From NCBI GenBank assembly GCA_000004985.1, contig GG739479.1: a stretch of 1,246 nt of DNA; one strand, written 5' to 3'. This stretch comes from Naegleria gruberi. Lineage: Eukaryota. Positions 1-1,246 of this stretch are shown here, piece after piece (within the stretch, counting starts at the first letter, position 1; every line of letters begins with the position of its first letter). A model generated the notes under the pieces. It saw nothing but the letters and a program-made list of their open reading frames with translations, had not been told where the DNA came from and made no database searches. The position numbers were made by a program, and so were the translations under genes.

Positions 1-446
1 CTCAGATCTTGGAGAGCACATCTTAAATCTCTAACTTCAGCAATACTAACTGCTGTTCTAGGAGTATATTTTTGAATTCCATCATCACCAGTTGGAAATA
101 ATGTGACAGAATACTCAAAGGAAACAGATCTAGCACTACAACTACTGCATTTCTTTTCTGGATTGCCATAGTTAAAGCCTAGTGCACAACCATATTTTGG
201 CATTTTGAACTCTAAATTTTTGTCGCAACCATCATAGTAAAAACAGGATTCACGATCATAAAGGTTTGGCAAATTGTATGCAAGGTTGTCAAAGTAATTG
301 GTTAAGTTGGAACACACCATTTTTGCTATTTGTTCCTTTCTGTCTAGCAGAGCAGCGAATGTGGCTGGTGCCTTGGGACCGCTTTGTTGAAATGAGAGAG
401 ATACCAGAAGAAAGCCGAGCAATAACAAGGGTACAAGCTTTTGCAT
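1..446 (-). CDS. Hypothetical secretory-pathway protein, N-terminal 148 codons (cleavable signal peptide or type II signal anchor followed by a Cys-rich lumenal/extracellular region); 3' end of gene lies beyond window start; family not recognised
   Basis: Manual translation of the minus strand from ATG at 446-444 (context caaaaaaaaaaacaaaATGc). All 148 in-frame codons down to position 3 are open; I checked that no + strand triplet tta/cta/tca occurs in this frame. Product: MQKLVPLLLLGFLLVSLSFQQSGPKAPATFAALLDRKEQIAKMVCSNLTNYFDNLAYNLPNLYDRESCFYYDGCDKNLEFKMPKYGCALGFNYGNPEKKCSSCSARSVSFEYSVTLFPTGDDGIQKYTPRTAVSIAEVRDLRCALQDL... It has a 16-residue hydrophobic core (residues 4-19) directly after M-Q-K, an NLT sequon at residue 47, and seven Cys including CFYYDGC and CSSC. 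It is absent from the ORF track only because no stop falls inside the window. Same strand and yeast-like codon usage as the neighbouring SAM gene. Confidence 0.7.
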   Translation of the reverse strand, partial: MQKLVPLLLLGFLLVSLSFQQSGPKAPATFAALLDRKEQIAKMVCSNLTNYFDNLAYNLPNLYDRESCFYYDGCDKNLEFKMPKYGCALGFNYGNPEKKCSSCSARSVSFEYSVTLFPTGDDGIQKYTPRTAVSIAEVRDLRCALQDL

Positions 447-498
447 TTTGTTTTTTTTTTTGAGTGATGGAAAGGTGTTTTGGGTTACCTATTGGCTA

Positions 499-526
499 TG
501 TTTCGTTCACTTAGTTTCGTTCACTT
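499..526. repeat. Tandem direct repeat, 13-bp unit GTTTCGTTCACTT x2 (500-512 and 514-526) separated by 1 nt
   Basis: Exact identity of the two units, read directly from the sequence. Confidence 0.85.
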
Positions 527-564
527 TCCAAACACAATAAAAATGGCATTGCCCAAGTGAAATG

Positions 565-598
565 GTGAACGAAACAATCCAAGTAAGGAAAACGAAAC
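565..598. repeat. Inverted copies of the same motif: GTGAACGAAAC (565-575, perfect reverse complement of GTTTCGTTCAC) and AACGAAAC (591-598, 8-bp partial copy)
   Basis: The reverse complement of 500-510 equals 565-575 exactly (11/11; 12/12 when 499 is paired with 576). The 591-598 copy matches the first 8 bp. Together with the direct repeat this forms a palindromic array centred near 544. Confidence 0.8.
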
Positions 599-639
599 TA
601 TTAGCGTTTGTGGAACTTTTGTGCAAATTTTAAATATTT

Positions 640-707
640 CGCAAAAATAAGCATTTGTAAAATATTATTCTTTGTTTTTAATTTTTTAGTTTATTGGCTT
701 TCCTAAT
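640..707 (-). terminator. 3'UTR / polyadenylation region of the SAM synthetase gene (AT-rich, yeast-type signals)
   Basis: Immediately 3' of the TAA stop on the minus strand. The minus-strand sequence reads ttaggaaagccAATAAActaaaaaattaaaaacaaagaataatattttacaaatg, with AATAAA (+690-695) 13 nt after the stop. An A-rich tract and a TATTTTACA/TTTGTA-like efficiency element follow. No rho-independent hairpin is expected in a eukaryote. Confidence 0.4.
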
Positions 708-1246
708 TTAGAGTTGGAGAGTCTTTGGTTGTTCCCATGGGAATTCGCTTCTTCCAAAGTGACCATAAGCAGCAGTTGGTGAGTAGATTGGGTTCATCAA
801 GTTCAAATCCTTAATGATGTGATATGGTCTCAAATCAAAGTTCTTATTGACAATAGCCAAAATATCAGCATCAGTCTTACCGTTCAAAGCAGTACCATAG
901 GTATCAACGTGAACAGACAATGGGTGAGCAATACCAATAGCATAGGCAACTTGAACCAAACATCTCTTAGCCAAACCAGCAGCAACGACGGACTTAGCAA
1001 CCCATCTTGCAGCATAAGAAGCAGATCTATCGACCTTAGATGGATCCTTACCAGAGAAAGCACCACCACCGTGAGCACCCCAACCACCATAAGTATCAAC
1101 AATAATCTTTCTACCAGTAAGACCAGCATCACCTTGTGGACCTCCGATAACGAATCTTCCAGATGGGTTAAGATGGTAAATAGTAGCATCATCCAACAAA
1201 TTGGCTGGAATAACTGGAACAATGACGTGTTCCTTCAATGACTTTG
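708..1246 (-). CDS. SAM2: S-adenosylmethionine synthetase (methionine adenosyltransferase, MAT/MetK family; yeast SAM1/SAM2 ortholog), C-terminal ~179 aa including TAA stop at 710-708; 5' end of gene lies beyond window end
   Basis: The translation carries MAT hallmark blocks: [67 protein letters not shown] and, further on, [22 protein letters not shown] through [22 protein letters not shown]-stop. The frame stays open upstream of the track's TTG 'start' (codons K-S-L at 1239-1246), so the true ORF runs off the window. The GGWGAHGGG and C-terminal PWExPKxL tail are eukaryotic-type. Codon use is strongly biased toward GGT, CCA, AGA, TTG and AAG, as in highly expressed yeast genes. Confidence 0.95.

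What the first reader, a model, noticed from the sequence alone, without database searches (positions are those of the whole stretch)
138..245. Cys-rich module (C-x5-C ... C ... C-x2-C) in the secreted protein that I cannot place in a known family
Residues 68-103 read CFYYDGCDKNLEFKMPKYGCALGFNYGNPEKKCSSC, followed by FEYSVTLFPTGDDGIQKYTPR and a seventh Cys at 143. There is also Cys45 beside an N-glycosylation sequon. The spacing fits none of the families I could recall: CFEM, EGF, LDLa, saposin, CAP/PR-1 CAP2 motif, Trx-type CxxC in Ost3/TUSC3, hydrophobin, or the papain pro-region. So it is either a lineage-specific secreted/cell-wall protein or a divergent member of a family I cannot recall. 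The CSSC pair could be a redox or metal-binding site.
Basis: partly seen in the sequence, partly recalled or inferred. Interest (0 to 1): 0.55.

Follow-up and report, generated by a model that had tools for sequence, protein, structure and literature searches.

The report
Cysteine cluster in Naegleria α2δ-like protein
The cysteine-rich stretch is real and conserved, but it belongs to the start of an amoeba (Naegleria-type) surface protein related to the α2δ subunits of animal calcium channels, and its closest relative is already listed in the literature, so the protein is ordinary and only the cysteine cluster is undescribed.

Summary
The minus-strand ORF 446..1 encodes 148 aa with Cys at 45, 68, 74, 87, 100, 103 and 143 and an NLT sequon at 47-49.

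The organism is a heterolobosean amoeba, not a fungus. The fragment is 73% identical (E 7e-65) to the N-terminus of Naegleria fowleri KAF0976623.1 and 45% identical to a Willaertia magna protein.

The full-length orthologues are type I membrane proteins of about 590-656 aa. Their profile matches the calcium-channel α2δ-1 subunit (hmmsearch E 2e-13; hhalign 98.5%, E 4e-15). The match covers the R-x-W-[YF] motif, a von Willebrand A (VWA) domain, and the Cache strands after it. This is the "single dCache_1 with VWA insertion" class of Gumerov et al. 2022, who list KAF0976623.1 by accession.

The detectable α2δ homology begins at the Arg three residues after the CSSC pair. The Cys-rich stretch itself matches nothing in Pfam or PDB and appears restricted to this orthogroup.

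All seven Cys are invariant in four orthologues. CxxC becomes CxxxC in Willaertia, and the full ectodomain has 16 conserved Cys. This favours structural disulfides over a redox or metal site, but the structure could not be modelled.

Verdict: new member of a known kind, low interest.

The parts
1..446 (-). N-terminal 148 codons (ATG at 444-446) of an α2δ-like dCache_1/VWA type I membrane protein. The ORF continues beyond the left edge of the window.
   Evidence: Translation. It is 73% identical, E 7e-65, to N. fowleri KAF0976623.1 residues 12-150, and 45% identical, E 6e-30, to W. magna KAL9649758.1.
384..446 (-). Signal peptide, about residues 1-21 (MQKLVPLLLLGFLLVSLSFQQ). The cleavage site was not determined.
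   Evidence: Sequence shows a short basic n-region followed by a hydrophobic core. Equivalent hydrophobic N-termini occur in all orthologues. No signal-peptide predictor was available.
276..365 (-). Predicted long helix, about residues 28-57, taken to be the stalk helix α1 of the dCache_1 domain. It carries Cys45 (312-314) and the conserved sequon N47-L-T49 (300-308).
   Evidence: Helix 28-57 appears in a low-confidence AF2 model. Assigning it as the stalk helix is an inference from the dCache_1 topology described in PMC8915833. Conservation of the sequon and Cys45 is shown.
129..257 (-). Cys-rich module, residues 64-106, with conserved pattern DR-x2-C-x-Y-x2-GCD-x2-LE-x-K-x-PKY-x-C-x2-G-x3-G-x2-E-x2-C-x2-C-x2-R. 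The finding's 138-245 is its core, Cys68 to Cys103.
   Evidence: 20 of 43 columns are invariant in four orthologues and all five Cys of this block are invariant. No Pfam hit at E<=10. No PDB hit with the N-terminal profile. The region lies immediately N-terminal to the start of the hhalign match to α2δ-1.
3..131 (-). Residues 106-148 (RSVSFEYSVTLFPTG...RCALQDL), including Cys143 (18-20). This is the first stretch that aligns with α2δ-1 (residues 157 to about 195, within the Pfam VWA_N region, the first part of the distal Cache module).
   Evidence: hhalign of the family profile against human α2δ-1 starts here: query 107 aligns with α2δ-1 R157. Per-column confidence is moderate for RSVSFEYSVxLFPT and low after that. 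phmmer places W. magna 111-189 on α2δ-1 157-223, collinear with the significant match but not significant by itself. The window segment on its own gives no significant match.
447..707 (-). Intergenic region between the stop of the upstream S-adenosylmethionine synthetase gene and the ATG. It presumably holds the promoter and 5' UTR, and contains three exact copies of GTTTCGTTCAC (500-510 and 514-524 on +, 565-575 on -) and a T run at 451-463.
   Evidence: 3 matches against 0.01 expected by chance. Any promoter role is an inference.

Best explanation
The window encodes the first 148 residues of a heterolobosean (Naegleria-type) type I membrane glycoprotein. [quoted passage not shown]

The inferred order along the full protein is: signal peptide, stalk helix, Cys-rich module, first part of the membrane-distal Cache module ending in F-x4-R-x-W-[FY], VWA domain with an imperfect MIDAS motif, the remaining Cache strands carrying the Y-x29/30-D half of the amino-acid-binding motif, a juxtamembrane CNYCNxPC cluster, one transmembrane helix, and a short charged tail.

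The Cys-rich module (residues 64-106) occupies the position held in α2δ-1 by a Cys-free linker of about 40 residues between the stalk helix and R157. I read it as a lineage-specific, disulfide-stapled elaboration of the distal Cache module. On this reading its cysteines stabilise an extracellular fold and do not perform redox or metal chemistry.

Because the protein has no cytoplasmic signalling domain, it most likely works as α2δ or CACHD1 do. It would bind a small amino-acid-like ligand in the Cache pocket and act as an auxiliary subunit or co-receptor of another membrane protein through its VWA and Cache surfaces.

Shown here: orthology, domain homology, Cys conservation and membrane topology of the orthologues. 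Inferred: disulfide formation, the placement of the module in the fold, ligand binding, and any partner.
For: Orthology:
- The fragment matches only two cluster representatives among 1.84 billion: N. fowleri (73% identity, E 7e-65) and W. magna (45%, E 6e-30).
- A fourth orthologue lies on metagenome contig L002.

Family placement:
- W. magna protein against the PDB: α2δ-1 at E 4.5e-7 over 'EYRNRPWYIQSAFTPKNLVLMIDMS' against '[26 protein letters not shown]'.
- Family profile against the PDB: 13 α2δ-1 sequences at E about 2e-13 over profile 210-487, matching α2δ-1 233-494.
- hhalign against human α2δ-1 (sequence verified 100% against 8hlp_F): probability 98.5%, E 4e-15, query 107-487 matching 157-494.
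- Pfam gives a Cache-type MCP-like_PDC_1 match after the VWA domain at E 3e-5, which is below the gathering score.
- Foldseek of the AF2 model ranks α2δ-1 and CACHD1 first, at E 1e-12 to 1e-11.

Literature:
- KAF0976623.1 is listed as a Heterolobosea dCache_1AA protein with motif F....R.WF / Y / D.
- The class 'single dCache_1 with VWA insertion' in protists is described in PMC8915833.
- I recovered the same motif directly from the orthologue sequences.

Topology:
- All full-length orthologues have a C-terminal hydrophobic helix followed by a charged tail.
- The AF2 model has a helix at 578-609.

Cysteines:
- 7 of 7 are invariant (P about 4e-4).
- The spacing is CxxC in Naegleria and CxxxC in Willaertia.
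- There are 16 conserved ectodomain Cys.
Against: - The window fragment by itself has no significant similarity to α2δ-1 (hhalign E 0.18, at a different register), to any Pfam family or to any PDB chain. The family assignment therefore rests on orthology to full-length proteins from other species.
- Pfam VWA_N is not detected in any orthologue.
- Both AF2 models are unreliable in the N-terminal 230 residues (pLDDT 20-45). The fold of the module and its disulfide pairing are not known.
- The first and last Tyr of the amino-acid-binding motif are Phe in Naegleria and the first is Leu in Willaertia. The MIDAS motif is DxSSV in two of three orthologues. Ligand and metal binding may therefore be altered or lost.
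- No partner channel was looked for.
Confidence: 0.8

Rival explanations
1. The Cys-rich stretch is a functional redox-active or metal-binding site, with the CSSC pair acting as a thioredoxin-like CxxC or as part of a Cys4 metal site.
For: Cys100 and Cys103 are invariant, and the block around them is the most conserved part of the fragment.
Against: The spacing is not conserved: CSSC, CTGC and CQNC in Naegleria-type sequences but CQKQC in Willaertia. A positionally aligned CSHNC occurs in the distant homologue P0005. No thioredoxin-fold or zinc-binding family is detected. The region follows a signal peptide and carries a conserved N-glycosylation sequon, so it faces the oxidising exterior. From general knowledge, Cys in that setting normally form disulfides. 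The ectodomain has an even number (16) of conserved Cys.
Confidence: 0.07
2. It is a lineage-specific secreted or cell-wall protein unrelated to any characterised family.
For: The 148-aa fragment alone hits nothing in Pfam or the PDB. It has only two relatives among 1.84 billion cluster representatives.
Against: Those relatives continue into a region that matches α2δ-1 at E 2e-13 by hmmsearch and E 4e-15 by hhalign, and they end in a transmembrane helix. The N. fowleri orthologue is already classified as dCache_1AA plus VWA.
Confidence: 0.03
3. The module is a separate small disulfide-rich domain inserted between the stalk helix and the Cache module. It would serve as a binding surface for a partner protein or a second ligand rather than as a structural staple.
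For: It is the best conserved block of the N-terminal region, at 47% invariant. It has no counterpart in α2δ-1, where hhalign column confidence is zero N-terminal to residue 107. A distant homologue (P0005) also has many Cys at this position.
Against: There is no structure and no independent occurrence of the module in other architectures: only two representatives were found and the metagenome scans found none. The similarity to P0005 in this region is not significant (E 0.18).
Confidence: 0.1

Closest known systems
Single dCache_1AA proteins with a VWA insertion in protists (Gumerov et al., PNAS 2022, PMC8915833), specifically Naegleria fowleri KAF0976623.1 / XP_044561336.1 / A0A6A5BFK7
   Same: The window fragment is 73% identical to the N-terminus of this protein. 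The architecture is the same: signal peptide, Cache part 1, VWA, Cache part 2 and a TM helix. The motif F....R.WF / Y / D is as listed in the paper's table.
   Different: It comes from a different species, which was not identified. N. gruberi is possible, since its gene model XP_002668267.1 lacks this N-terminus. In the main text and the passages I could read, the paper deals with the Cache pocket motif and does not mention the N-terminal Cys cluster.
Voltage-gated calcium channel α2δ-1 subunit (CACNA2D1; PDB 8hlp_F, 7mix_D, 8if3_A and others)
   Same: The R-x-W-Y motif, the whole VWA domain and the following Cache strands (W..Y.D...LGV.GVDV) are homologous. hmmsearch gives E 2e-13 and hhalign gives 98.5%, E 4e-15, with query 107-487 matching α2δ-1 157-494. 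The VWA Cys in 'YPCxTxGLW' aligns with α2δ-1 Cys404. From memory, that is the Cys forming the α2-δ disulfide.
   Different: The orthologues are about half the length (590-656 against about 1100 aa). They have no second dCache_1 domain and no δ peptide, and they carry a true TM helix. MIDAS is DxSSV in two of three orthologues, against DVSGS in α2δ-1. α2δ-1 has no cysteines in the segment that corresponds positionally to the Cys-rich module (sequence). Pfam VWA_N is not detected.
CACHD1 (PDB 8s7c_A, 9eq6_A)
   Same: It is a type I membrane protein with a VWA domain inserted in a Cache domain, a degenerate MIDAS motif and no cytoplasmic enzyme domain. It is among the top Foldseek hits, at E 2.5e-11.
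   Different: CACHD1 has two dCache_1 domains and is much larger. No direct sequence comparison was made here beyond Foldseek on a model that is confident only in the VWA domain.
Bacterial dCache_1 amino-acid chemoreceptor sensor domains (for example PctA)
   Same: The C-terminal Cache strands hit the Pfam MCP-like_PDC_1 model at E 3e-5, below the gathering score. The R-x-W-[YF] and Y...D pocket residues are retained.
   Different: The bacterial domains have no VWA insertion, no Cys-rich module and no signal-peptide/type I topology, and they are coupled to cytoplasmic signalling domains (PMC8915833).

Membership tests
Eukaryotic dCache_1 with VWA insertion (α2δ / CACHD1 / single-dCache class) | A VWA domain flanked on the N-terminal side by the R-x-W-[YF] Cache helix and on the C-terminal side by the Cache strands W..Y.D...LGV.GVD | tested here: met
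   Met in the full-length orthologues: hmmsearch E 2e-13 and hhalign E 4e-15 against α2δ-1 across exactly these elements. The window ends at residue 148, before these elements. For the window, membership therefore follows from 73% identity to the orthologue's N-terminus.
Eukaryotic dCache_1 with VWA insertion (α2δ / CACHD1 / single-dCache class) | Amino-acid-binding motif Y-x4-R-x-W-Y ... Y-x(27-34)-D | tested here: inconclusive
   The orthologues have FEYRNRSWF, FDYRARSWF and LEYRNRPWY, followed by Y-x29/30-D. R, W, the second-half Y and D are kept. The first Tyr is Phe or Leu, and the last Tyr is Phe in Naegleria. Gumerov et al. still count KAF0976623.1 as a motif carrier. This part lies outside the window.
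Eukaryotic dCache_1 with VWA insertion (α2δ / CACHD1 / single-dCache class) | Pfam VWA_N (PF08399) region N-terminal to the VWA domain | tested here: not met
   No VWA_N hit at E<=10 for the window protein, nor for N. fowleri or W. magna. Only the distant P0005 gives a sub-threshold hit (E 7e-4, 20.7 bits against a cut-off of 34.7). hhalign nevertheless aligns family residues 107-187 with α2δ-1 157-224, which lies inside VWA_N.
Bona fide calcium-channel α2δ subunit | Two nested dCache_1 domains (including the VGCC_alpha2 region) and a δ segment, total about 1000-1100 aa | tested here: not met
   The orthologues are 581-656 aa with a single Cache module pair and a TM helix directly after a short Cys cluster. 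There is no Pfam VGCC_alpha2 hit.
Bona fide calcium-channel α2δ subunit | Perfect MIDAS motif D-x-S-x-S in the VWA domain | tested here: inconclusive
   The motif reads DYSSV in N. fowleri, DMSSV in W. magna and DYSSS in the metagenome orthologue. It lies outside the window.
Bona fide calcium-channel α2δ subunit | Physical association with a four-domain voltage-gated Ca channel | not testable with these tools
   No interaction data are available, and I did not establish whether Naegleria encodes such a channel (searches gave no statement).
Thioredoxin-type CxxC redox site | Invariant C-x-x-C spacing within a thioredoxin fold | tested here: not met
   The spacing is CxxC in three orthologues and CxxxC in W. 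magna. There is no thioredoxin-family Pfam hit.
   hmmscan against Pfam-A returned 0 families for the 148-aa protein at E<=10. No such families were returned for the full-length orthologues either.

The most novel reading that the evidence does not exclude
The conserved Cys-rich block (DR..C.Y..GCD..LE.K.PKY.C..G...G..E..C..C..R) is a previously undescribed disulfide-rich cap on the ligand-binding distal Cache module of a vahlkampfiid (Naegleria/Willaertia) α2δ-like surface receptor. It would reshape the pocket or create a second binding surface. If so, these amoebae, including the pathogen N. fowleri, would have a distinctive extracellular amino-acid or gabapentinoid-type sensor or channel auxiliary subunit.
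Probability: 0.12. Interest if true: 0.5.

Novelty: new member of a known kind. Interest (0 to 1): 0.25.

Why it matters
The practical value is mainly annotation.

- The unplaced fragment can now be labelled as the N-terminus of an α2δ-like dCache_1/VWA membrane protein of a Naegleria-type amoeba.
- This probably supplies the N-terminus missing from the N. gruberi model XP_002668267.1.
- Together with CAG4709659.1, it shows that the N. fowleri model KAF0976623.1 splices out 39-43 conserved residues of the Cache module.

On the biology, α2δ-like proteins in protists have no known function. A strongly conserved, lineage-specific Cys cluster sitting next to the predicted ligand-binding module is a reasonable target for anyone studying these proteins or N. 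fowleri surface antigens. Nothing here contradicts current knowledge or opens a long-standing question.

Tried and rejected
Searches with the fragment that found nothing:
- Word-indexed protein search.
- Two metagenome scans, one with the fragment and one with the N-terminal alignment.
- Pfam on the fragment at E<=10.
- PDB phmmer on the fragment, which gave only a repeat-inflated cerebellin hit and a Cas6 hit. Both are chance: no single stretch is significant.
- PDB hmmsearch with the N-terminal profile A4.

Profile comparisons that were not significant:
- Window-only profile A5 against α2δ-1 1-266: E 0.18, wrong register.
- A5 against the N-terminus of the distant homologue P0005: E 0.18, with only C-x2/3-C-x2-R aligned. 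A wider distribution of the module is therefore not established.
- Forcing the hhalign alignment to the N-terminus (mact 0) gave zero column confidence before residue 104.

Structure:
- Single-sequence AF2 of the fragment: mean pLDDT 42.6.
- AF2 of the full W. magna protein with a 6-row alignment: mean pLDDT 43.9, confident only in the VWA domain at 238-440.
- No fold or disulfide pairing could be derived for the module. Model coordinates are not exposed, so Cys-Cys distances could not be measured.

Ideas dropped:
- My initial recollection of a class-3 lipase N-terminus (note) was dropped once the orthologues were seen.
- A yeast or CTG-clade origin, suggested by the adjacent SAM synthetase and AT-rich DNA, was rejected when the relatives proved to be Naegleria and Willaertia.
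- Synteny with N. fowleri was checked. The neighbours differ: there is no SAM synthetase next to FDP41_004522.
- Literature searches gave no statement on Cav channels in Naegleria.

Full report
**1. What is in the window**

The window holds two genes on the minus strand.

- Bases 708-1246 encode the C-terminal 178 residues of S-adenosylmethionine synthetase, ending at a TAA stop (Pfam S-AdoMet_synt_C, E 8e-69).
- After a 260-nt AT-rich spacer, an ATG at 444-446 opens a reading frame that runs to base 3 and off the window.

Cys are at 45, 68, 74, 87, 100, 103 and 143, and there is an NLT sequon at 47-49. The finding's coordinates 138-245 correspond to Cys103 back to Cys68.

**2. Whether the pattern is more than chance**

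The fragment has very few relatives.

- A word-indexed search found none.
- An exhaustive phmmer scan of 1.84 billion cluster representatives found two: P0001 (73% identity, E 7e-65) and P0002 (45%, E 6e-30).
- P0001 is Naegleria fowleri KAF0976623.1 / FDP41_004522. P0002 is Willaertia magna KAL9649758.1.
- A fourth orthologue is split over two called genes on an ENA metagenome contig, L002.

In the four-way alignment all seven Cys are invariant, while only 51 of 148 columns are invariant (P about 4e-4). Residues 64-106 are the best conserved block, at 47% invariant. The cluster is under selection.

**3. What the protein is**

The full-length orthologues are 581-656 aa and end in a hydrophobic helix followed by a short charged tail.

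- The W. magna protein hits only calcium-channel α2δ-1 chains in the PDB. The match is E 4.5e-7 over 'LEYRNRPWYIQSAFTPKNLVLMIDMS...' against '[26 protein letters not shown]...'.
- A profile of the four orthologues raises this to E 2e-13 over profile 210-487, matching α2δ-1 233-494. This span covers the R-x-W-Y motif, the whole VWA domain and the Cache strands 'W..Y.D.L..G...T..L....LGV.GVDV' that follow it.
- I checked my recalled human α2δ-1 sequence against the PDB and it is 100% identical to 8hlp_F residues 1-530.
- hhalign of the family profile against that sequence gives probability 98.5%, E 4e-15, aligning family 107-487 with α2δ-1 157-494.
- Pfam sees only a sub-threshold Cache-type match after the VWA domain (MCP-like_PDC_1, E 3e-5) and a weak VWA_3 match.
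- Foldseek of an AF2 model ranks α2δ-1 and CACHD1 first, although that model is confident only in the VWA domain.

**4. Relation to the literature**

Gumerov et al. (PNAS 2022, PMC8915833) showed three things relevant here.

- The VWA_N region is the first part of that Cache domain and carries Y....R.WY.
- Many protists, Heterolobosea included, have shorter proteins with a single dCache_1 plus VWA.

The supplementary table of the preprint version of that paper lists 'Naegleria fowleri, Heterolobosea, KAF0976623.1, F....R.WF Y D'. That is the same accession as P0001. I recovered the same motif from the sequences:

- N-terminal half: FEYRNRSWF, FDYRARSWF and LEYRNRPWY.
- C-terminal half: Y-x29/30-D.
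- MIDAS-like motif: DYSSV, DYSSS and DMSSV.

The protein class, and this orthogroup's membership of it, are therefore already known. An earlier survey had reported only one Cache protein in Naegleria (PMC4822843). The truncated N. gruberi gene model may have contributed to this one being missed there.

**5. Where the Cys-rich module sits**

The significant hhalign alignment begins at the Arg in 'ARSVSFEYSVTLFPT' (window R106), which aligns with α2δ-1 R157 in 'GRQISYQHAAVHIPT'. That Arg is three residues after the CSSC pair. phmmer gives the same collinear placement, though not significantly on its own.

N-terminal to that point no alignment has any confidence. The N-terminal profile finds nothing in the PDB, and the window-only profile finds nothing significant in α2δ-1.

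Positionally, the module replaces the Cys-free segment of about 40 residues that follows the stalk helix in α2δ-1. The distant homologue P0005 (E 1e-12 to the family; VWA and weak VWA_N hits) is also Cys-rich at this position. It has an aligned C-x3-C-x2-R, but the similarity is not significant. On present evidence the module is specific to the Naegleria/Willaertia orthogroup.

**6. Mechanism**

Shown:
- A signal-peptide-like N-terminus.
- A conserved sequon.
- Invariant Cys.
- Variable spacing of the last pair (CxxC against CxxxC).
- 16 conserved ectodomain Cys in the full-length proteins, including two in an insertion before the R-x-W motif, two in the VWA domain and a juxtamembrane CNYCNxPC cluster.

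Inferred:
- The cysteines form structural disulfides that staple a lineage-specific elaboration onto the distal Cache module.
- Seven is an odd number, so at least one Cys of the window fragment must pair with a Cys encoded beyond the window.
- The protein has no cytoplasmic domain. It probably acts like α2δ or CACHD1, as a ligand-binding auxiliary or co-receptor subunit.

The redox or metal reading is disfavoured by the variable spacing, the extracellular location and the absence of any thioredoxin-like or zinc-binding signature. Two AF2 attempts failed for this region (pLDDT 20-45). The fold and the pairing remain open.

**7. Verdict**

The protein is a divergent member of a known family. 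The 36-residue module has no known family. The redox or metal idea is unlikely.
- Novelty: a new member of a known kind.
- Interest is low. The unexplained part is a conserved, unmodelled Cys cluster in a protist α2δ-like protein of unknown function.

Noticed in passing
window 708-1246 (-): C-terminal 178 residues of S-adenosylmethionine synthetase (Pfam S-AdoMet_synt_C, E 8e-69), ending at a TAA stop at 708-710. It lies on the same strand as the α2δ-like gene and directly upstream of it. The N. fowleri orthologue has different neighbours (an RCC1/RGS protein and a HAT-repeat protein), so this adjacency is not conserved.
   Followed up: partly
window 500-510, 514-524 (+) and 565-575 (-); related AACGAAAC at 568-575 and 591-598: There are three exact copies of the 11-mer GTTTCGTTCAC, two tandem and one inverted, lying 55-130 nt upstream of the ATG of the α2δ-like gene. 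This is 3 matches against 0.01 expected by chance. It could be a transcription-factor site or a small palindromic element. Its function is unknown.
   Followed up: partly
L001 6469-6638 (N. fowleri VFQX01000037.1, gene FDP41_004522): The RefSeq/GenBank model KAF0976623.1 (553 aa) removes a 170-nt 'intron' that contains conserved coding sequence (KYKVDDTINQIYVAGEYAPLINTYPGLSWRFNNSIPSTTCLQ). This sequence belongs to the VWA_N/Cache region and includes one of the 16 conserved Cys. Short GTAAGT...AG introns of 41-53 nt restore it. The independent model CAG4709659.1 (592 aa) uses the 53-nt version, and the metagenome orthologue has a 33-nt intron at the same place.
   Followed up: yes
P0003 (N. gruberi XP_002668267.1 / D2W5X9, NAEGRDRAFT_54870): The N. 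gruberi gene model has only 347 aa and starts inside the VWA domain, on a 4.8-kb scaffold. It lacks the whole N-terminal region described here. The window may be the missing 5' part of that gene or of a close relative's gene, but this could not be tested.
   Followed up: partly
Orthologues, outside the window (for example N. fowleri 'YPCLTGGLW' and 'GGPCNYCNQPCG'): The conserved VWA cysteine aligns with α2δ-1 Cys404. From memory, Cys404 forms the α2-δ intersubunit disulfide. A conserved CNYCNxPC cluster sits just before the TM helix. This suggests that an α2δ-like VWA-to-stalk disulfide may be retained within a single chain.
   Followed up: no
L003 397-2232 (Logan SRR13587048 contig, P0005): This is an intronless 611-aa single-dCache/VWA protein from an unidentified eukaryote. 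It has a perfect MIDAS motif (DASAS), the motif FDPRVRPWY and its own Cys-rich N-terminal region. It is the only more distant relative that the word-indexed search reached.
   Followed up: partly
window 451-463: A T13 run on the plus strand, which reads as an A-rich leader directly upstream of the ATG on the coding strand.
   Followed up: no
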